Below are positions 1 through 7,442 of a stretch of 7,538 nucleotides of DNA, in pieces (the stretch's first letter is position 1; every line of letters starts with the position of its first letter). The stretch spans positions 1 through 7,538 of the IMG/VR virus record IMGVR_UViG_3300029157_000009, one strand, 5' to 3'. The notes under the pieces were generated by a model. It saw nothing but the letters and a program-made list of their open reading frames with translations, searched no databases and had not been told where the DNA came from. The stretch comes from a virus (lineage: Duplodnaviria > Heunggongvirae > Uroviricota > Caudoviricetes). Both the position numbers and the translations under genes were made by a program.

Positions 1-1129
1 TCTATATAGCAATTATTATTCGCATCCTTTTTCTCATAATTCAACAAATGCATTCGGATTTGTTGTATTAGCAATATACATAATAACCCTCTCAAGCAAG
101 AAAATAATTCCTGCCGCTTCCATTTTTATACTATTAGTACTTTCTGGAGCTTCTGATCCTTGGATATTACCATCTTTTACACTACCTATATTGATATCTG
201 AGGTTTACAATTCATTCATCAATAGAAAAAGTTACAAATACTTTATTTTTCTATTGCTTGCATTTTTAACATCTTATTTGAATCTAGTTCAACACCTTTT
301 TGATCTACCGACTGGCGGGTTCAAAATAACAACATTTGAGCAGATGATATCTAATGCACAGTATGCAATAGTATTAACAGCAAAAATGATGCCATTGTGG
401 GTAAACCCATCAGCATCTATGTCATATTTTATTGTTTTCATATGGGTGGCCGTGTTCATAGCAGCTGCTTTAGTTTGTTTTAATAGAGGTAAAGAATTAC
501 GTATCTTTTCTATTTGCTGCGTCCTTTCAGTTCTTGGAATTTACTCTTCATCTATAATTGGAGATCAATTTCCGCATCAACGTTTTTATGTAAATGTTGC
601 TCCCGTTGTTTTCTTGTTAACCTCTGTAGCCATAAGATTTTATAAAGCTTTCTTAATACCAATTTTCATAACTATTTGTGTTTCTGTTTATGGGTATTGT
701 AACTCACCATTAAAATATGAAGAAAATAAAAACCCAGTTTATGAATATATGACTTTCCTTTCCAACAATAATCTAAGTTATGGTTATGGTAGTTTTTGGT
801 ATTCTATGAATATGACAGTGAATTGGTTATCAAAAGACCAAATACATATAACACCTGTTTTCTTTAACCCTGAAACTGGTGTTGTGTATTTTCAGCCTGC
901 AAGAATACAAACACTGTCTTCATGGCATACAAAGGAATTCATAAGCGGTAAACCAAACAGACAGTTTATTGCCATAACTCAGGGACAAACCGGTGGTGAT
1001 ACATGTCCAAACGTTCAAATATGTATTGATGGTGCTCAGAAGCAATTAGGAAAAGCCGATGAAATCCTATCATATAAGAACACAACATTCTTGGTGTACA
1101 ACAAACCAATTGAAACAGATATAAAGTAA
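1..1129 (+). CDS. 5'-truncated multi-pass integral membrane protein with a ~150-aa C-terminal hydrophilic domain; candidate O-antigen-modifying (GtrC-like) lysogenic-conversion protein
   Basis: The listed ORF begins at a TTG at 191, but the same frame (codons from position 2) has no stop back to the window edge and encodes further hydrophobic segments (e.g. FGFVVLAIYIITL, IIPAASIFILLVLSGA), so the gene starts upstream of the window. At least six hydrophobic helices are followed by a hydrophilic tail (CNSPLKYEENKNPVYEY...KPIETDIK). The region is visibly AT-rich compared with the rest of the window. It is convergent on the tailspike gene, as gtrC is in P22. The functional family is inferred from position and topology only. 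Confidence 0.75.
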   Translation, partial: LYSNYYSHPFSHNSTNAFGFVVLAIYIITLSSKKIIPAASIFILLVLSGASDPWILPSFTLPILISEVYNSFINRKSYKYFIFLLLAFLTSYLNLVQHLFDLPTGGFKITTFEQMISNAQYAIVLTAKMMPLWVNPSASMSYFIVFIWVAVFIAAALVCFNRGKELRIFSICCVLSVLGIYSSSIIGDQFPHQRFYVNVAPVVFLLTSVAIRFYKAFLIPIFITICVSVYGYCNSPLKYEENKNPVYEYMTFLSNNNLSYGYGSFWYSMNMTVNWLSKDQIHITPVFFNPETGVVYFQPARIQTLSSWHTKEFISGKPNRQFIAITQGQTGGDTCPNVQICIDGAQKQLGKADEILSYKNTTFLVYNKPIETDIK

Positions 1130-1166: not shown

Positions 1167-3290
1167 TTAATAATTCCCCTCAGAAAGGAAGCTGTAAACC
1201 CCGGGACCACCTGCAATATTACATGTCCACGCCTTTGGTTGTCCTGAAGCAGGTGCGCTATTGATAACGCGTTCGCCTATATCCCAGAAACCGGATGTAG
1301 GTACTGACGAAAGATAAAATGTTGTTTTTTCAACTTGTAACGCATTTGATGGCATTCCATATACACAAAGAGACGGTGAGTTTATGAGTACATTTCCTGA
1401 ACCATAATTTCTTATGCCAACATTTATAGCTGTAGCCGTTGCGTCTATATACACACCACAACTAACATAGCGCCATTTCCCATTACCAGCTAAAGGTGCT
1501 GTAGAGTCTGTTTGTCCTGCACCATTAACTATAAACATAAGTTTTGACGCTGCTCCCTGGTCATTTACCCACGCACCAAACCATACAAATTTCCCTTTTA
1601 GTTCTGGTGATTTGTTGAGGTCTATCGTTCGTCCCCAAACTCTATCTCCTGTCGTAACTAAGAATGAATAATTACCAGCATAGATGTTTTGAGTTTTTAT
1701 CAATGTTCCTGTGGTTCCAGATGTCGCGGTCCAGAGCAACATATTTCGATCAAGATAGTTAGCAGTTAACTCTCTGTTCGCAATATCTATTAAATGCGCA
1801 GTGTCAGGGTTTTGTGTCGCCGGGTCATAACTACCAACGTATCCTATGGAGTTCACTGTGTTGTTGGCAAGATATAGCCTGTCAGTAACTTTGGACGAAA
1901 GATTATTGTGGTACATTGCTAATAAATTATTCACTTTCGATACGTCTAATAACTGATTATTTTCAATCGTCAGGTTTTTCGCATAGTTCGTGAAAATAAA
2001 TCCGTCTTGGTTAGGTAGCGCGCTGGCGTAGCCAATCGCGGTCTGCTGATTCCCGCGAATAGATACGGTATCATTAATTTTTGAAAGGTCAGGAATTAAT
2101 GTAAAATTGTTCGCGATAAGGTGGATATCCGCACGTACTGTAATAGACTCAGGTACACTATACGGGTAACCAATCTCACCGTTGCGTTCCCAATAGTTAT
2201 CATCAAGGTTAAGGCCTTTAACCCCGTAAGCCAAAAGTCCGTAGAACTTATTTTGCTCTATATTGTTGCCATTAACTCTGACGCTCATACCGCCCTCAGC
2301 GTAAGCTGGCGTAAGTAAAACTCCACCGGCTCCGTTACCATAGATACGGCTGTTGATTATATTAATATTATTGCAGAAACCACCAACATTAATACCGTTA
2401 CCGGCGTTTTGAAACAACCGGCACCCAATGATGTCAATGGAGTAACCGTTAACTAATATTGCGTTGTTATTAGTATTAACCACGTCAATATTTTCTATTT
2501 TAATGTGGTTGGCTTCAGTAAGACTGATGCCGTTAGCTGCGTAGCCATTTCCGTCAAGACCAAAGTCCCTGAACTCGCAGAACGCAATTACCCCATCTTG
2601 TTGCGTGATTATCGGTGCCGCTGTACCCGTAGAGAAAATTCTGGACTGATATGCGCCAGCACCTCGTATCATGGTGACAGTATTCTTAATCGTAATACCA
2701 GGGTCAACAATGAACGCCCCCTCTGGTATAACAATCTCAGTTGGCAACGTAGCATCATCAATAGCCTTCTGAAATGCAGCTTTGTTCTGAGCACCGGTGT
2801 TTCCCTCAGCAAACCCGTAGTCTGTAAGCGTCCTCAGGTCGATAGTTAGCTTTTTTGAGAGAATGGTCGATGTGCTATCGACAAACTGTGGGTTATGCAT
2901 GACTAGAGAGTCGCCAAGTGAGTGATCTTCGCTCAGGAGATTGCCCTTAAACTGATCTGGATCATACTTTAGCACATTCGGAAAATAGAACTGCTGCGCA
3001 CCGTATGCATCATAAACAGCCATAGAATGGCCTTGCACAGTTACGAACTTGGCAATCTGTCCGTTATATACAGGGTAACCAGCAGCGTTAATGATGATTG
3101 GTTGCGAAACAGGAACGTGAGAGCCGTCTTCGTTTTCCACATAAACCTGAATCTGGTTTTCAGGATTTACCGGGTCCGTGTCAATTTTACCGATATAAAT
3201 TTTGCCATTAGTTACGGCTTTAAAAGAACGCGCCATAGTGAAGAGTTGCGAAGGCATGCTTACCACAACATTTGCGGTGATATCTGACAT
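1167..3290 (-). CDS. Tailspike protein: P22 gp9-type N-terminal head-binding domain fused to a divergent right-handed beta-helix receptor-binding domain (probable polysaccharide depolymerase)
   Basis: From the internal Met the protein begins [59 protein letters not shown]...[15 protein letters not shown]...NVLKYDPDQ, which closely matches the P22 tailspike N-terminus as I recall it ([59 protein letters not shown]...). I place the start at the ATG at 3290-3288 rather than the ORF-track start at 3338, because of this homology and a GGAG Shine-Dalgarno 7 nt upstream on the minus strand. The remaining ~590 residues are rich in N/G/I/V repeats typical of a parallel beta-helix (e.g. [71 protein letters not shown]) and do not resemble the P22 endorhamnosidase domain. 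Confidence 0.92.
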
Positions 3291-3411
3291 TTCATTGCTC
3301 CAGACGAATGATATGATGCAACCATGATGTGATTGCATACCGAAATGGTACTATTGAGTATTTATCCAGTAGGTTACGATGCCATTCCACCCAACTGGTG
3401 AGGCATCAAGG
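3291..3411. promoter_or_regulatory. Divergent intergenic control region between the tailspike and the mnt-like gene; candidate promoters and operator
   Basis: A 121-bp spacer separates two divergent start codons. It contains ATGAT direct repeats (3308-3317 and 3324-3328), an inverted repeat ATGCAA (3316-3321) / TTGCAT (3333-3338), and a short inverted repeat CACC-AACT-GGTG (3389-3400) just before the mnt-like Shine-Dalgarno. I could not assign -35/-10 hexamers with confidence. Confidence 0.35.
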
Positions 3412-3672
3412 ATGTACAGCAAATACGACGAGGCGCAGTTTCACTTGAGACTTCCGCATGAACTCCACGCGAAAATTAAGCAGCGTGCGAAGATGAATAA
3501 CAGGTCGCTGAACTCAGAGATAATTGCAGCGATTGAGGAATCATTGGATAAACAAAGCTCTGCATCAGTTTACATTGACGATGCAGAGCGTATGGCAGAA
3601 CAACAATCTGATATGGTTAAGAAAATTGTCTTTGATACGCTCAAGAAGCTATATAAAAAAGACAGCAGATAA
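3412..3672 (+). CDS. mnt: Mnt-like ribbon-helix-helix (Arc/MetJ family) transcriptional repressor
   Basis: The C-terminal half, DAERMAEQQSDMVKKIVFDTLKKLYKK, closely matches P22 Mnt (DAERLADEQSELVKKMVFDTLKDLYKK), and the N-terminal region, FHLRLPHELHAKIKQRAKMNNRSLNSEII, aligns with the Mnt RHH region (FNFRMPMEVREKLKFRAEANGRSMNSELL), both from memory. I start the gene at the ATG at 3412, which gives an Mnt-sized 86-aa product with a GGTGAGG Shine-Dalgarno (3397-3403), rather than at the ORF-track ATG at 3379. Confidence 0.85.
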   Translation: MYSKYDEAQFHLRLPHELHAKIKQRAKMNNRSLNSEIIAAIEESLDKQSSASVYIDDAERMAEQQSDMVKKIVFDTLKKLYKKDSR

Positions 3673-3692
3673 CCATCCGTTACGGAGGATTT

Positions 3693-3770
3693 ATGCACAG
3701 AGATATGCTGAATATTGCGTTCTACATATTTGGTTTTTGCACGTTCCTGGTGTTTGCAAAGCTATTCTGA
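3693..3770 (+). CDS. Hypothetical 25-aa hydrophobic peptide (MHRDMLNIAFYIFGFCTFLVFAKLF), single predicted transmembrane helix
   Basis: An ATG at 3693 is preceded by GGAGGA (3684-3689) and lies 20 nt after the mnt-like stop on the same strand. The product is a short charged head followed by about 20 hydrophobic residues. Its 3' end overlaps the last codons of the convergent 797-aa gene. It is too short to be supported by homology and the Shine-Dalgarno spacing is short. Confidence 0.25.
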   Translation: MHRDMLNIAFYIFGFCTFLVFAKLF

Positions 3771-6155
3771 CAACGCATCAGACTTAGCCCCCTGCGTCAG
3801 GGCGTTAATGGCCTTTTGCGCCTGCTGCATGGCTTTCTCAAACGCTGTTGATCCGCGTGGGGTGTTTGCCATTCGGAGCATTGCATTTCTGAATGGCTCG
3901 CTCTCATAGGCGCGAGTAAGAAGTCCGTAGCTTACCGCTGCGCCAGTTGTCGCCGGGTTCATTGCCGTCCCATACCCGATAATGAACGGGATAGTTTGCT
4001 GCCCCGTTGGTGTTGTTACTGCCGCTTTTGCTGCCTGCTGAGTGGATTGAAGGTAGTTTTTCAATCCTTTCAGATAAGCGGCTTCCTGACCTTTAAATGT
4101 GATGCCAGTCTGGTTTTGCAGGATGTTAAGCTGTCGAAGGAACTGGTCAGGGGATCCGCCAGATTTCTCCATCGCCTTTCCAATGATGCCATTGCGCATT
4201 TGCGCCCTGCCAACACGACCAACTGAGTTATACAGAGTCTTAATTTCCGATTTGTTCTTGCTGAATAGCATGTTGTTGACAACTTCCGGCGTCAGGTCGC
4301 CTTTCATGATAACATTCTTCAGCCTGGTATTCTTTAGTTTCGCCGCTTCGTCAGCGTAGACGGCATTGGCCTGCTGATATTTACGGAGAGTATCGTTGCC
4401 AAGATTCTGACCAATGGCACCATTGATATCGTCAGTCATTGCCTTGTAAACGCGCTGAATGGCAGCATCGGAACGGTTTGGTAACACTGGTCGCTCACCC
4501 TTCACGTCCATTCTGAACTGGCTGCGCAGGTCGCTTAATTGCTTCAAATCCAGATTTACCGGACCATCAGGACCAGCATTGCGAACAAGCTCATCACGAT
4601 AGGACTGAAGTTTTGAAATAGTCTCGTTATCGGCGACCTTACCAAGCTTCTGCAGATTAGATATTTCTGTATCAATCTGCTGAATTGCTCGCGCAGGCTG
4701 AATGTTTACTCCAGCCATAGCATTCTGAACCTGCTCCAGTCGATTACCGGCGGCACGACGAATTCCTGATGTTTTCGCTTTAAGGCTGTCAATAACAACC
4801 GCTGGATCATACTCACCGAATTTATCGGCAAATCTCTGCACCAACTGGCTTCTCGCTTCCTGTTGCGTTGCTCTCATTCCGCTTGTGCCAGCCAGAGGGA
4901 TATTTTCTGCTGTAGTCTGCGCCATTTTTCCGACGCGGGAAGTTGGTTGTAACAGGTCTGTGGTGTGAAGAGGAACTCCTTCACGCTCTGCAAATCTGAT
5001 AGCCTGCTGCGCTTCTGGCGAGATAGCGCCACGAACGCCACGATAAGCAGCACCTAATCCACGTCCGGCAGCGTTAATAGCACCGCCAGCAAGTACACCA
5101 ACGCCTAAATCGGTGGCGAGTGCTTCCGCATCATCTTTCGCACTATTTGCAGCAAGTGATCCAACTGCGTTTTCTGCTAGAAGGCGAGTTGCCCCCTGAG
5201 CAATTCGACCAGCAAGTGTTGGTGCCTGTGTTGCCGCTCTCTCAACGCCAGCAGGAGTGAGGTAAGGCAATGCTTCAGCAAATACCCTTCCCTCTGTCGT
5301 TTGTGGAGTCAGCGCGCCTTGCTGAAGGCCAAAGTCCTGCTCTAATCCCTGCGTTGTTACTCGTGGTGCTGGTTGATATGTACCATCGCCAATGCCGAGT
5401 TTACCGCCAGCCCAAGCCGCCGCGCTTGTTACAGCATCAGTGAGTTCAGCAGGTATGTTCGCTACGTTGATTCCTGCCTGTAGTAAGCCGCGCCCGGTTT
5501 CAGCAAGTCCATTACCAAGGTCAGACATTATTCCGCCTTGCTGCTGAACAGGTTTCGGTGCGACAGAACTTACGGGTTGAGGTGGCTGCTGACTGGCTGC
5601 CTGCTGCTCAATCTGAGCAAATGGATTATTTGGGTCTGACTGCACGCCTGATGCCGATACTTGTTCGGATGACTGTGCTTCCAGTTGTGCAAACGGGTTG
5701 TTAGGGTCTTGCTGAGGATGTACCTTTGCAGAGGTGGCGCGCTGTTCGACTGTTGAGTCTGTCACCGGGTCACCCGCCCATTGAGCAAAGCGATCATCAA
5801 CGTAACCGCGGCCTTCAGGTCCTGGCGTATATTCACCACGCTTTGCCTTCATAACGTTGCCGGGACCGTCGTGATAAGCCTGAAGAGCGTCACGCCAGTT
5901 ACCAAACTGCTGGTACATCTTTGCCAGATAGCGCGCGCCAGCGTCAGCCTGATATTCGGGGTTTTGCATTTGCTCATCGGTATAACCCATATCACGCCAT
6001 GTCCCAGGCATGACCTGAGTCAATCCTACAGCCCCGGCGGAGCTTACTGCGGCAGGGTTGTAAGAAGACTCCTTGGCACCCAGTGCAGTCATCAACCCTT
6101 CTGGCACACCGTAACGTGCGCCAGCCTGCTCTAACAAATCACGGTAATTAGCCAT
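3762..6155 (-). CDS. Virion ejection (DNA-transfer) protein in the P22 gene-16 position, with an N-terminal family-1 lytic transglycosylase (SLT) domain
   Basis: This is a 797-aa ORF. Its N-terminus carries the canonical SLT signature AKESSYNPAAVSSAGAVGLTQVMPGTW, with the catalytic Glu in the ES motif, followed by AYHDGPGN. The remainder is an Ala/Gly/Gln-rich extended region. The start ATG directly abuts the stop of the preceding gene (TAAATG at 6158-6153), suggesting translational coupling. Its position, just downstream of the gene-20-like protein and upstream of the tailspike, matches the ejection-protein block of P22-like phages. Confidence 0.9.
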   Translation of the reverse strand: MANYRDLLEQAGARYGVPEGLMTALGAKESSYNPAAVSSAGAVGLTQVMPGTWRDMGYTDEQMQNPEYQADAGARYLAKMYQQFGNWRDALQAYHDGPGNVMKAKRGEYTPGPEGRGYVDDRFAQWAGDPVTDSTVEQRATSAKVHPQQDPNNPFAQLEAQSSEQVSASGVQSDPNNPFAQIEQQAASQQPPQPVSSVAPKPVQQQGGIMSDLGNGLAETGRGLLQAGINVANIPAELTDAVTSAAAWAGGKLGIGDGTYQPAPRVTTQGLEQDFGLQQGALTPQTTEGRVFAEALPYLTPAGVERAATQAPTLAGRIAQGATRLLAENAVGSLAANSAKDDAEALATDLGVGVLAGGAINAAGRGLGAAYRGVRGAISPEAQQAIRFAEREGVPLHTTDLLQPTSRVGKMAQTTAENIPLAGTSGMRATQQEARSQLVQRFADKFGEYDPAVVIDSLKAKTSGIRRAAGNRLEQVQNAMAGVNIQPARAIQQIDTEISNLQKLGKVADNETISKLQSYRDELVRNAGPDGPVNLDLKQLSDLRSQFRMDVKGERPVLPNRSDAAIQRVYKAMTDDINGAIGQNLGNDTLRKYQQANAVYADEAAKLKNTRLKNVIMKGDLTPEVVNNMLFSKNKSEIKTLYNSVGRVGRAQMRNGIIGKAMEKSGGSPDQFLRQLNILQNQTGITFKGQEAAYLKGLKNYLQSTQQAAKAAVTTPTGQQTIPFIIGYGTAMNPATTGAAVSYGLLTRAYESEPFRNAMLRMANTPRGSTAFEKAMQQAQKAINALTQGAKSDALSE
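5589..5714 (-). repeat. In-frame tandem duplication of about 18 codons inside the SLT-domain ejection protein
   Basis: Protein residues ~148-165 (QQDPNNPFAQLEAQSSEQ) and ~172-189 (QSDPNNPFAQIEQQAASQ) are near-identical, and the matching DNA units are visible on the plus strand around 5620-5710 (caaatggattatttgggtctgactg / caaacgggttgttagggtcttgctg). The repeat lies just C-terminal to the SLT domain. Confidence 0.6.
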
Positions 6156-7442
6156 TTACTGCCCCAAAGATGGAAGATATCCGTAGCGATTAATGAAGTC
6201 GATTGACAGCTCGGGGTGCTGCTTCAGGTAATCTATAGAAGCCTGAGGCGCTTCCACTCGCTTGATACCGTTTTGCTGAACGTACTTACCAACCGCCTCA
6301 TTACGCTTCTGGTTGAGCGTGTTCAGGATGACGCCAGCGTTGCGACGAAAGGACTCCTCGCTCTGCGAGTTCTGCAGCGAACCAACAGCCTGGTCGAGCT
6401 TTTTGCCCTCGGCATCAGAAAGTGCGCCCATGCCTCGCATGGCCTGAACCGCTGTCAGGTATGCTTGTGATTTAAAGGTATCAAGTCGTGCCTGAGTGTC
6501 TGCAGCCTGTGAGCCTGGAACGTTGGGGATTACTCCACGTAAGCCTGTAATGCTCTTAAGTGAAGGAGAGCTAACGATATCGTTCAGAGTGAACATGCTG
6601 GTTGTGAGGGTGTTGATGCCGTCTTTGTAGCCATCATTTAGCGCTTGCTGCTTCTGCTGCAACTGCTGGTTGTTGGCTGCTATGCGGCTCTGTATTTCCT
6701 GGCGCTTCAGGTCGTTAGTTTCTGCTGATAGCATCCGGTCAAGGCGCTTATTTTCGTTGTTAATGCGGTTTGTTTCTGCGTCCAGATTAATGCGCTGCTG
6801 ACCTAAATTCGCCTGGATATCTTGTCCGCGCATTGTGATTGCCTGATTCCGAGCGGCGGTTTGCGAATCCAGATCCTGACCGCGCATGGTAACCTGGCGA
6901 CCCTGCATTTTATCCTGTAGGTCAAAGTATTTTTCGGGCCCGAGACTGTTCATCCCCAGGTGATCGACAAATTCGCCGAACTGCCGCGGATTCTGTTGGT
7001 ACATCTGAGCGACGTCATGAGGATTAACGCCAACACGAGCTAACTCACCGGCGTTGTTTTGCAGCCATGATTGCATTGCTTCTGGAGACGATGACGCAAG
7101 GCGTGCGCCAGCAGCTAAGGTGCCGATAGAATTACGCTGCTCTTCATCAATGAATCCCATGCCTTTACGAACGGATTCAATCTGGTCTGGATATTGAGTA
7201 GCCAACTGACGCAAAGCACCGCGATCACCAGACGCATAAGCATTAGCGTACGCCTGCTGAAATTCTTTCTGCCGCTGAGCCTGCTTTTCCTGCTGAAACA
7301 CCCCCGCAATACCAGAAAGACCTTGCAAAGCTGTCAGCCCAACATTGTTAGCGCCTGAACGCTCAATATCATTGTTCTGCCTGATAAGCTGAAGCGTGTT
7401 GCCGATGTCATTTACGGTGTGCCCGGAGTTCAGGGCGGGCAT
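6156..7442 (-). CDS. Virion ejection (DNA-transfer) protein in the P22 gene-20 position
   Basis: This is a 428-aa ORF, Gln-rich, with a weak internal duplication of the motif TMRGQD (residues ~185-190 and ~203-208; DNA ~6786-6893). Codon usage matches the neighbouring ejection gene. It is tightly packed and co-directional with the SLT-domain protein (stop/start TAAATG). The assignment rests on position and size; I cannot recall the P22 gp20 sequence well enough to claim direct homology. Confidence 0.8.

What the first reader, a model, noticed from the sequence alone, without database searches (positions are those of the whole stretch)
3291..3672. Orphan Mnt-like repressor placed divergently against the tailspike gene, with arc and ant absent
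In P22 the immI region runs mnt <- Omnt/Pant -> arc -> ant -> gene 9, and Pant transcripts continue into the tailspike gene. Here the Mnt homolog is present but its divergent partner is the tailspike itself: the 121 bp between them replace what would be arc-ant. The Mnt-like protein would then either be a leftover of a deleted immI module or have been recruited to control tailspike transcription from a Pant-derived promoter. Its N-terminal beta-strand region (YSKYDEAQFHLRLP) differs from P22 Mnt (ARDDPHFNFRMP) at positions known to contact the operator in Mnt, so a different operator sequence is expected, and I did not find the P22 Omnt palindrome.
Basis: partly seen in the sequence, partly recalled or inferred. 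Interest (0 to 1): 0.7.

Follow-up and report, generated by a model that had tools for sequence, protein, structure and literature searches.

The report
Lone Mnt repressor beside phage tailspike
A P22-like prophage keeps an intact Mnt-type repressor and its own binding site next to the tailspike gene without the antirepressor genes Mnt normally controls; this gene layout is common and already described, so the finding is largely ordinary, though what the lone repressor does is still untested.

Summary
An 86-aa Mnt homologue (3412-3672, +) lies 121 bp from, and divergent to, a P22-type tailspike gene (1167-3290, -). No arc, ant or sar is present.

The arrangement is not new. "mnt-only" regions between gene 16 and the tailspike gene are described for phages L, ST64T and ST104. 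This exact module is in phages Sf101 and IME10 and in about 250 of 5426 complete E. coli genomes.

It is not a decaying leftover:
- All 85 close copies are intact.
- pN/pS is 0.15 overall and 0.04 in the DNA-binding domain.
- A palindrome, ATACC-N-AAA-N-GGTAC (3337-3351), sits where P22 has Omnt, 10 nt upstream of the Pmnt -35.
- That palindrome is the least variable part of the spacer and changes in step with the Mnt beta-strand residues across three classes.

There is no Pant-like promoter facing the tailspike. The best hit on that strand equals background.

Most likely this is a self-regulating, prophage-expressed mnt cassette, here apparently co-transcribed with a conserved 25-aa membrane peptide. 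The tailspike gene would then be read through from the late operon. Binding and regulation are inferred, not shown.

The parts
3412..3672 (+). mnt-like gene: 86-aa ribbon-helix-helix repressor with an Mnt-type C-terminal tetramerisation helix (class A N-terminus MYSKYDEAQFHLRLP)
   Evidence: Pfam Arc 7.5e-15 and Repressor_Mnt 8.9e-15. PDB 1mnt 7.6e-19 and 1qey 4.4e-8. 85/85 close homologues are intact at 261 nt. pN/pS is 0.15 overall and 0.044 in codons 1-45.
3337..3351 (.). Candidate Mnt operator ATACCGAAATGGTAC (arms TACC 3338-3341 and GGTA 3347-3350, centre 3344)
   Evidence: It aligns with P22 Omnt and has the same 10-nt distance from its centre to the Pmnt -35. The arms and central AAA are invariant in 43 of 45 unique class A upstream sequences. 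Its diversity is the lowest in the spacer: pi 0.0098, against mnt pS 0.097. It is the only copy in the whole Sf101 and VSe13 genomes. Binding was not tested.
3354..3380 (+). Candidate Pmnt: -35 TTGAGT (3354-3359), 15-nt spacer, -10 TACGAT (3375-3380)
   Evidence: It is positionally homologous to the annotated P22 Pmnt, TTGAGA-17-TATCAT. It is the top + strand PWM hit here (8.0); its positional homologue is the top hit in 5 of the 6 mnt-only loci scanned and second in L008 (8.0-10.5). Both hexamers are invariant in the 40 unique sequences from 66 loci. No transcription start was mapped.
3291..3411 (.). 121-bp divergent spacer between the tailspike and mnt start codons. It holds the tailspike Shine-Dalgarno (GGAG, 3299-3302 on the - strand), the palindrome, the operator, Pmnt and the mnt Shine-Dalgarno (GAGG).
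   Evidence: Read directly from the sequence. The spacer is 121 bp in 66 of 85 close relatives. No - strand promoter-like site was found.
3316..3338 (.). 23-bp near-perfect palindrome ATGCAACCA-TGATG-TGATTGCAT abutting the operator. It would form a hairpin in the late (- strand) transcript about 25 nt upstream of the tailspike start.
   Evidence: the repeat finder pair I2. It is perfect in IME10. L008 keeps a stem through a compensatory G:C->T:A change. The RNA fold gives -9 kcal/mol, z -3.2. It is the most variable part of the spacer (pi 0.050). Role unknown.
3693..3770 (+). Unannotated 25-aa hydrophobic ORF (MHRDMLNIAFYIFGFCTFLVFAKLF), 20 nt downstream of mnt, with a GGAGGA Shine-Dalgarno. 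Probable second gene of the mnt transcript.
   Evidence: The frame is intact in 74 of 85 relatives, including the divergent L008. It has no family match in NCBIfam or PHROGs. It is not annotated in RefSeq.
1167..3290 (-). Tailspike gene (707 aa): P22-type head-binding domain plus a beta-helix receptor-binding domain
   Evidence: Pfam Head_binding 4.2e-67 and Beta_helix 1.5e-8. The receptor-binding part is 96-98% identical to the tailspikes of phage N7 and of E. coli 2013C-3277. In both, the tailspike follows a full mnt-arc-ant region.
3762..6155 (-). Gene-16-type ejection protein with an N-terminal SLT lytic transglycosylase. It is the last late-operon gene upstream of mnt and the tailspike.
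   Evidence: Pfam SLT 2.8e-25. It is syntenic with P22 gene 16.

Best explanation
This is a working 'mnt-only' version of the variable region ('ant moron') that P22-like phages carry between gene 16 and the tailspike gene.

The 86-aa protein is a true Mnt-type ribbon-helix-helix tetramer with a new DNA specificity. I infer that it binds the single palindrome ATACC-N-AAA-N-GGTAC, centred at 3344. That site lies immediately upstream of the -35 of its own weak promoter (TTGAGT-15-TACGAT), in the same geometry as Omnt and Pmnt in P22. The strong divergent promoter Pant, and its cargo arc-ant-sar, are not there.

The direct target of the repressor is therefore its own transcription unit. In this window that unit appears to be mnt plus a conserved 25-aa membrane peptide, expressed from the prophage. 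The tailspike gene has its own ribosome-binding site and is transcribed by read-through of the late operon, across mnt in antisense.

Shown here: homology, intactness, purifying selection, operator conservation, operator/beta-strand covariation, and absence of arc, ant and Pant.

Inferred: binding, the sign of autoregulation, co-transcription of the small ORF, and late read-through.
For: Family: Pfam Arc and Repressor_Mnt; PDB 1mnt and 1qey.

Known layout:
- Phages Sf101, IME10, VSe13, JEP4, Gally, ST64T and ST160 all have mnt divergent from the tailspike with no arc or ant.
- The literature describes mnt-only regions in ST64T, ST104, Para1 and L.
- 250 of 5426 complete E. coli genomes carry at least 80% of 3230-3690.

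Selection:
- 85/85 CDS are 261 nt and start with ATG.
- pN/pS is 0.15 overall, and 0.044 in the RHH domain.
- Operator pi is 0.0098 against synonymous 0.097.
- Only 2 of 124 class A copies are broken. One of them (L010) also has a mutated operator arm.

Covariation: each N-terminal class has its own palindrome, all 10 nt from the Pmnt -35.
- YDEAQFHLRL pairs with ATACC-NAAAN-GGTAC.
- DDPQFNLRL pairs with GACCAC-N-GTGGTC.
- DDPHFNFRM pairs with GGTCCAC-C-GTGGACC.
- VSe13 and JEP4 share the class A N-terminus and operator but have a different C-terminal domain.

Single target: the operator occurs once in the whole Sf101 and VSe13 genomes.

No Pant: tailspike-directed PWM hits score 4-6, equal to the background median of 5.0, while P22 Pant scores 15.5. 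The consensus scan finds no - strand promoter.

Relatives with HNH genes of 654-728 bp inserted between the operator and the tailspike start still keep an open tailspike frame.
Against: - No binding, transcript or reporter data exist for this class.
- The candidate Pmnt is weak: score 8.0, about the 90-95th percentile of background, with a 15-nt spacer.
- The four-base arms would not be significant on their own. The case rests on position, conservation and covariation.
- If the only job were self-regulation, it is unclear why the cassette is kept at all. VSe13- and JEP4-type copies lack the 25-aa ORF, so that ORF cannot be the general reason.
- Classes A and B have diverged in specificity without any ant gene. 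This hints that operator occupancy matters for something beyond autoregulation.
- Class A cassettes are always immediately next to the tailspike gene, even when a full ant module lies upstream. That fits a role connected with the tailspike.
Confidence: 0.65

Rival explanations
1. Mnt controls tailspike expression. In this reading, the tetramer bound 54 nt upstream of the tailspike start either represses a weak cryptic leftward promoter or acts as a roadblock (helped by convergent Pmnt transcription). It would limit transcription entering the tailspike gene from upstream in the lysogen or during late growth.
For: - The operator lies directly in the path of any transcript running from gene 16 into the tailspike gene.
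- Class A and class B cassettes are next to the tailspike in essentially every locus: 66/85 at exactly 121 bp, and 70/79 class B within 300 nt.
- This holds even where a full ant module lies upstream (L154).
- Villafane et al. state that the P22 region is thought to modulate how often late transcription reaches the tailspike gene, and that Mnt and Arc may take part.
- No intrinsic terminator is predicted between gene 16 and the tailspike.
Against: - No promoter-like site faces the tailspike in any mnt-only class. The position homologous to the Pant -10 has lost the -7 T in all of them.
- HNH-gene insertions of 654-728 bp separate the operator from the tailspike start in several relatives. This does not exclude a roadblock.
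- Late RNA polymerase modified by a Q-type antiterminator is expected to be hard to block (general knowledge, not tested here).
Confidence: 0.18
2. Trans-acting immunity. The lone Mnt made by the prophage would act on incoming or co-resident P22-like phages that carry the same operator class. For example, it could silence their antirepressor promoter, or interfere with their late transcription into the tailspike gene.
For: - In P22, prophage Mnt keeps ant off (annotation; literature).
- The mnt-only lineages have split into at least two specificity classes with matching operators. This is the pattern expected of immunity determinants.
- The DNA-binding domain is under very strong constraint (pN/pS 0.044).
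Against: - All 38 occurrences of the class A operator in a P22-like context in viral contigs sit upstream of a class A mnt or abut a tailspike start at a contig end. None sits next to arc or ant.
- ant-bearing E. coli phages with the same tailspike (N7) use a different operator and a different Mnt N-terminus.
- The ant promoter region of L154 lacks a full class A site.
Confidence: 0.1
3. Non-functional remnant. In this reading mnt is simply what is left after arc-ant was deleted, and it is drifting toward loss.
For: - Phage L authors raised this possibility for the L mnt-like gene.
- Occasional decay is seen: a stop codon plus an operator mutation in L010, and truncated copies in L194, L297 and L298.
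- Some P22-like phages (Sf6, APSE) do without the region altogether.
Against: - 85/85 close copies are intact. pN/pS is 0.15 overall and 0.044 in the RHH domain.
- The operator is about ten times less diverse than synonymous sites.
- Operator and recognition residues co-vary across classes.
- The module is present in about 250 complete E. coli genomes with many different tailspikes.
Confidence: 0.05

Closest known systems
Phage P22 Mnt repressor and the immI region (mnt - Omnt/Pmnt/Pant - arc - sar - ant)
   Same: - Same two-domain protein: an RHH domain plus a C-terminal tetramerisation helix, 49% identical to P22 Mnt. The C-terminal helix is nearly identical.
- Same place in the genome, between gene 16 and the tailspike gene, and same orientation.
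- A palindromic site at the same distance (10 nt from centre to -35) upstream of a homologous Pmnt.
   Different: - No Pant, arc, sar or ant.
- A different operator sequence: TACC-N5-GGTA instead of GGTCCAC-C-GTGGACC.
- Three of the four beta-strand positions that I recall as base-contacting in P22 Mnt differ (Arg2->Tyr, His6->Gln, Asn8->His; Arg10 kept).
- Pmnt is weaker (PWM 8.0 against 13.1) and has a 15-nt spacer.
- The divergent neighbour is the tailspike gene itself.
'mnt-only' ant moron of Salmonella phages L, ST64T, ST104 and ST160/SE1 (Villafane et al. 2008; Zaworski et al. 2020)
   Same: Same architecture: gene 16, then mnt pointing back, then a short spacer (135 bp there, 121 bp here), then the tailspike gene. 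No arc or ant, and a conserved operator next to Pmnt. The same open question is stated in print: new function or remnant.
   Different: - A different Mnt specificity class: DDPQFNLRL with GACCAC-N-GTGGTC there, YDEAQFHLRL with ATACC-NAAAN-GGTAC here.
- A different spacer sequence next to the tailspike start.
- A different downstream gene: orf62 there, a 25-aa hydrophobic ORF here.
- E. coli/Shigella hosts rather than Salmonella.
Shigella phage Sf101 gp14 and the unannotated homologue in Enterobacteria phage IME10
   Same: Essentially the same module. DNA identity is 96.9-97.8% across mnt, the spacer and the tailspike start, and protein identity is 96-100%.
   Different: - Sf101 gp14 is annotated from the upstream ATG (97 aa) and is mislabelled 'partition protein ATPase' or 'chromosome segregation ATPase'.
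- The Sf101 paper does not discuss it.
- Sf101 has a different gene 16 and lacks the 25-aa ORF.
Autoregulated ribbon-helix-helix repressors in general (Arc, CopG, type II antitoxins such as FitA and HicB partners)
   Same: An RHH fold that reads a short palindrome in its own promoter region. There are weak Pfam hits to HicB and FitA-like RHH.
   Different: - No toxin-sized partner gene is present.
- The Mnt-specific C-terminal helix is present.
- The phage late-region context is that of immI, not of a toxin-antitoxin locus.

Membership tests
Mnt repressor family (P22 Mnt; Arc/Mnt ribbon-helix-helix) | N-terminal ribbon-helix-helix DNA-binding domain | tested here: met
   Pfam PF03869 Arc, E 7.5e-15, residues 7-49. 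Aligns to 1mnt over residues 6-78, E 7.6e-19.
Mnt repressor family (P22 Mnt; Arc/Mnt ribbon-helix-helix) | Mnt-specific C-terminal tetramerisation helix | tested here: met
   Pfam PF11423 Repressor_Mnt, E 8.9e-15, residues 57-82. Matches 1qey, E 4.4e-8. The oligomeric state itself was not measured.
Mnt repressor family (P22 Mnt; Arc/Mnt ribbon-helix-helix) | Cognate palindromic operator just upstream of its own promoter | tested here: inconclusive
   A conserved palindrome sits at the position homologous to Omnt and co-varies with the beta-strand residues. Physical binding was not tested.
P22-type immI module (mnt-arc-ant with sar) | Divergent strong promoter (Pant) overlapped by the Mnt operator | tested here: not met
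   The best tailspike-directed PWM score is 5.7 in the window and 4-6 across the six mnt-only loci scanned. P22 Pant scores 15.5 and the background median is 5.0. The consensus scan gave no - strand hit.
P22-type immI module (mnt-arc-ant with sar) | arc and ant genes, and sar RNA, downstream of Pant | tested here: not met
   tblastn with P22 Arc and Ant finds nothing in the window or within 6 kb on either side in 85 close relatives. None is annotated in the complete Sf101 genome. There is no Rfam hit.
P22-type immI module (mnt-arc-ant with sar) | Function: maintenance of lysogeny by keeping the antirepressor off | not testable with these tools
   No antirepressor under this operator was found. 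Genetics would be needed.
'mnt-only' ant moron of P22-like phages (L/ST64T type) | Lies between the gene 16 and tailspike (gene 9) homologues, inside the late operon but in the opposite orientation | tested here: met
   Gene order in the window is 20, 16, mnt (opposite strand), tailspike. The same order is seen in ST64T and ST160.
'mnt-only' ant moron of P22-like phages (L/ST64T type) | Contains an mnt homologue, no arc or ant, and at most one small gene of unknown function | tested here: met
.
Type II toxin-antitoxin RHH antitoxin (HicB / FitA-like) | Adjacent toxin gene in the same operon | tested here: not met
   Only a 25-aa hydrophobic ORF follows mnt, and it has no family match. The Pfam HicB and FitA hits are weaker and cover only the RHH domain.

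The most novel reading that the evidence does not exclude
The lone-Mnt cassettes (classes A and B) could be a second, antirepressor-independent kind of immunity determinant placed at the entrance to the tailspike gene. Mnt from a resident prophage would bind the matching operator on an incoming or co-induced P22-like genome. It would throttle late transcription into that genome's tailspike gene, so the rival yields tail-less, non-infectious particles. Selection would then drive the observed split into distinct operator/beta-strand specificities. In the window type, the same transcript would also deliver a 25-aa membrane peptide.
Probability: 0.08. Interest if true: 0.7.

Novelty: new member of a known kind. 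Interest (0 to 1): 0.3.

Why it matters
The practical gains are modest.
- It corrects a propagated misannotation. Mnt homologues are labelled 'partition protein ATPase' through PHROG 795 and RefSeq phage records.
- It fixes the start codon of Sf101 gp14.
- It defines a new Mnt specificity class with its predicted operator. That could serve as an orthogonal repressor/operator pair alongside the well-studied P22 Mnt.

Biologically, it sharpens a question already raised for phage L. The lone mnt is clearly maintained by selection together with its operator, and it never accompanies arc-ant in classes A and B. It must therefore do something other than control an antirepressor. The region also flags an unannotated, conserved 25-aa membrane peptide in about 5% of complete E. 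coli genomes.

Tried and rejected
- **P22 operators.** I looked for the P22 Omnt and Oarc sequences and found neither. Only the diverged palindrome is at the homologous place.
- **Leftward promoter.** I used the consensus scan and a PWM with P22 as positive control. Nothing exceeded background.
- **Second operator.** I searched whole phage genomes (Sf101, VSe13) and a 44-kb prophage stretch (L007) that stops short of the immunity region, and found none.
- **Class A operator in viral contigs.** The pattern CATACCNAAANGGTAC gave 119 stretches. Of the 117 newly fetched, 79 had no P22-like gene (probably chance matches in unrelated viruses) and 38 were in P22-like phages. Four of the unrelated contigs carry two sites 515 bp apart; I did not follow these up.
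- **97-aa ORF from 3379.** Rejected because it is out of frame in Gally.
- **Toxin-antitoxin reading.** Rejected because there is no toxin partner.
- **Known RNA families.** No Rfam match in 3100-3900.
- **Late-strand spacer RNA.** Its fold is only marginally more stable than shuffles (z -1.7).
- **Mnt contact residues.** A literature search found nothing usable. That point rests on my own recollection of Knight and Sauer's work.
- **Window source.** No complete E. coli genome or phage record covers at least 80% of the window or of 1-2940, so the rest of this particular prophage could not be inspected.

Full report
**1. What is in the window**

The window is the distal end of the late region of a P22-like (Lederbergvirus-type) prophage. 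The minus strand carries three late genes:
- a gene-20-type ejection protein (6156-7442; Pfam Inj_translocase);
- a gene-16-type ejection protein with an SLT lytic transglycosylase domain (3762-6155);
- a tailspike with the P22 head-binding domain and a beta-helix.

The mechanical tailspike ORF runs 1167-3338. The conserved N-terminus [10 protein letters not shown] begins at 3290, behind a GGAG Shine-Dalgarno.

An 86-aa ORF lies between genes 16 and the tailspike, on the plus strand (3412-3672). It matches Pfam Arc (7.5e-15) and Repressor_Mnt (8.9e-15). It also matches the solved Mnt N- and C-terminal structures, 1mnt at 7.6e-19 and 1qey at 4.4e-8. The spacer between the two start codons is 3291-3411, or 121 bp.

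tblastn with P22 Arc and Ant finds nothing in the window. No Rfam family matches the region.

**2. The arrangement is common and already described**

- The same DNA (mnt, spacer, tailspike start) is 97.8% identical in phage IME10, where it is unannotated. It is 96.9% identical in Shigella phage Sf101, where it is gp14, called from an upstream ATG and labelled 'partition protein ATPase'.
- Salmonella phage VSe13, coliphages JEP4 and Gally, and Salmonella phages ST64T and ST160 also have mnt directly divergent from the tailspike, with no arc or ant between them.
- 250 of 5426 complete E. coli genomes carry at least 80% of 3230-3690. PGAP names the protein 'Arc family DNA-binding protein'.
- Villafane et al. 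2008 (PMC2629481) named the gene 16 to gene 9 interval the 'ant moron'. They recorded that ST64T, ST104 and Para1 contain only mnt plus one unknown gene. They also noted that the P22 region is thought to modulate how often late transcription reaches the tailspike gene.
- The Sf101 paper does not mention the gene.

**3. It is not a decaying remnant**

I collected 85 close homologues (at least 85% protein identity), mostly from viral contigs.
- All 85 have a 261-nt CDS with an ATG start and no frameshift or premature stop. They comprise 57 distinct CDS and 32 distinct proteins.
- Mean pairwise pN/pS is 0.15. It is 0.044 in the ribbon-helix-helix domain (codons 1-45), 0.21 in the C-terminal helix and 0.75 in the linker.
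- Across 124 class A copies only two are broken. One of these (Citrobacter L010, with a stop at codon 5) is also one of the two sequences that carry a mutated operator arm.

**4. A cognate operator sits at the P22 position**

I aligned the spacers of related phages with the annotated P22 immI control region. This places ATACCGAAATGGTAC (3337-3351) where P22 has Omnt (AGGTCCACCGTGGACCT).

In both phages the palindrome centre is 10 nt from the first base of the Pmnt -35. That hexamer is TTGAGA in P22 and TTGAGT (3354-3359) here. The homologous -10 is TACGAT (3375-3380), with a 15-nt spacer.

Four-base arms would be unremarkable alone, but three lines of evidence support the site.
- **(a) Conservation.** In 45 unique class A upstream sequences from 124 loci, ATACC, the central AAA and GGTAC are invariant in 43. 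The flanks and positions -2 and +2 vary.
- **(b) Low diversity.** Operator diversity is 0.0098. The -35 to -10 stretch has 0.016, the adjacent palindrome 0.050 and mnt synonymous sites 0.097.
- **(c) Covariation with the recognition strand.**
  - Class A (MYSKYDEAQFHLRL) pairs with ATACC-NAAAN-GGTAC.
  - Class B (MGRDDPQFNLRLP; L, ST64T, Gally) pairs with GACCAC-N-GTGGTC. Its central base is free to vary.
  - Class C (MARDDPHFNFRMP; P22, epsilon34) pairs with GGTCCAC-C-GTGGACC.
  - A Phlomobacter variant (class C') has ATATCAC-C-GTGATAT.
  - VSe13 and JEP4 share the class A N-terminus and operator but have an unrelated C-terminal half. The operator therefore tracks the DNA-binding strand, not the rest of the protein.

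The site is unique in the whole Sf101 and VSe13 genomes. The claim that the aligned residues (P22 Arg2, His6, Asn8, Arg10) contact bases is from my memory of the P22 literature and was not verified here.

**5. There is no Pant-derived promoter**

I scored both strands with a simple sigma-70 PWM.
- P22 and epsilon34 served as positive controls. Pant scores 15.5 and Pmnt 13.1.
- In five of the six mnt-only loci scored (classes A and B), the positional homologue of Pmnt is the top plus-strand hit; in L008 it is second. Scores are 8.0-10.5.
- The best tailspike-directed hit in those loci scores 4-6, at non-homologous positions. The background median for 160-nt stretches of phage DNA is 5.0.
- The hexamer aligned with the Pant -10 (TATATT) reads TAAATA, CAAATC, TATATC or TGCATC in the mnt-only classes. 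All lack the -7 T.
- The consensus scan also found no minus-strand promoter.
- In several relatives, HNH endonuclease genes of 654-728 bp have been inserted between the operator and the tailspike start, and the tailspike frame stays open.

The tailspike is therefore best explained as transcribed by read-through of the late operon across mnt in antisense. No intrinsic terminator is predicted in between. This is an inference.

**6. Context argues for a separate cassette, not an in-situ deletion**

- The association between class and context is clean:
  - 77 of 80 class C loci have divergent arc plus ant.
  - 0 of 79 class B loci do.
  - No class A locus has arc-ant between mnt and the tailspike.
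- A CUS-3-like contig (L154) has a complete module of two mnt-like genes, arc, ant and a further ORF. A class A mnt plus operator follows immediately before the tailspike.
- The window's receptor-binding domain recurs at 96-98% identity behind a full mnt-arc-ant module in phage N7 and in E. coli 2013C-3277. Their Mnt N-terminus and operator are different. The junction at the tailspike 5' end is thus a mosaic boundary.

**7. Most likely mechanism, and what remains open**

I commit to a self-regulating, prophage-expressed mnt cassette (confidence about 0.65). Mnt would bind its single operator next to its own weak promoter.

In the window type, the transcript probably also carries a 25-aa hydrophobic ORF (3693-3770). 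That ORF has a strong GGAGGA Shine-Dalgarno. Its frame is intact in 74 of 85 relatives, including a divergent Escherichia species.

The sign of autoregulation is unknown. An operator spanning roughly -53 to -37 of Pmnt could either help or hinder RNA polymerase.

The main rival is that bound Mnt affects transcription into the tailspike gene as a roadblock. The cassette's constant position beside the tailspike, and the divergence of specificity without any ant gene, are points in its favour. A trans-immunity role found no support, because class A operators never accompany ant.

**8. Verdict**

This is a correct observation of a known and common arrangement. What is new is modest:
- a distinct Mnt specificity class with a predicted operator;
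- evidence that lone mnt cassettes are maintained by selection;
- absence of any Pant remnant;
- an unannotated small ORF.

I rate interest at about 0.3 and classify the finding as a new member of a known kind.

Noticed in passing
window 3693-3770 (+): An unannotated 25-aa hydrophobic ORF (MHRDMLNIAFYIFGFCTFLVFAKLF) lies 20 nt after the mnt stop, behind a strong GGAGGA Shine-Dalgarno. Its 3' end overlaps the stop codon of the gene-16 homologue on the other strand. The frame is kept in 74 of 85 relatives and in the divergent Escherichia sp. locus L008. It has no family hit.
   Followed up: partly
L016, L020, L025, L039, L078, L079 (654 bp); L033 (660 bp); L040, L049 (728 bp), between tailspike start and mnt operator: Three different HNH endonuclease ORFs (166, 164 and 179 aa) are inserted within the first ~6 codons of the tailspike gene in relatives. 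They point toward mnt. The old tailspike start is left as a stub and the gene gains a new start. RefSeq annotates such inserts as HNH endonuclease or as a hypothetical protein.
   Followed up: partly
window 3316-3338: A 23-bp palindrome ATGCAACCA-TGATG-TGATTGCAT abuts the operator. It is perfect in IME10. L008 keeps a stem through a compensatory G:C->T:A change, which suggests a hairpin rather than a protein site. It is absent from the 135-bp spacer type.
   Followed up: partly
window 3378-3407: The inverted repeat GATGCC-N18-GGCATC spans the Pmnt -10 and the mnt Shine-Dalgarno and has an inner stem CACC/GGTG. The outer arms are conserved in classes A and B. The inner stem differs by a compensatory change in class B (CACTT/AAGTG). 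It folds at -14.9 kcal/mol on the late strand, z -2.2. Its role is unknown.
   Followed up: no
L001 (Sf101 gp14), L004 (P22 mnt) and other RefSeq phage records: Mnt homologues are widely labelled 'partition protein ATPase' in RefSeq phage records, including P22 mnt itself. The same label is attached to PHROG 795, so this looks like a propagated misannotation. Sf101 gp14 is also called from an upstream ATG (97 aa) that is out of frame in Gally.
   Followed up: yes
L154 7300-10700: A CUS-3-like viral contig carries two tandem mnt-like genes, an arc-like gene, ant and a 270-aa ORF. A separate class A mnt with its operator then sits immediately before a K1-type endosialidase tailspike. L131 and L208 also show a second mnt-like/arc-like pair upstream of the class A mnt.
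   Followed up: partly
window 1167-2945 versus L217 (phage N7) and L218 (E. coli 2013C-3277): The receptor-binding part of the tailspike is 96-98% identical to tailspikes that follow a complete mnt-arc-ant region in other E. coli phages. This makes the tailspike 5' end a mosaic junction.
   Followed up: yes
window 191-1129 (+): A 312-aa multi-pass membrane ORF sits where P22-like phages carry O-antigen-modifying genes (gtr genes or acyltransferases). It has no Pfam or NCBIfam hit and only weak PHROG hits of unknown function. It is absent from all complete E. coli genomes searched, and about half of it is present in phage N7.
   Followed up: partly
L010 (Citrobacter sp.) 5900-6020: This locus has both a stop codon at mnt codon 5 and a mutated operator arm (GGTA->AGTA). 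It is a natural example of what decay of this cassette looks like.
   Followed up: partly
L107, L114, L150, L166 (viral contigs without P22-like genes): Each contig carries two exact matches to CATACCNAAANGGTAC, 515 bp apart on the same strand. None has a Mnt, Arc, Ant or tailspike homologue. This may be a repeated element in an unrelated virus.
   Followed up: no
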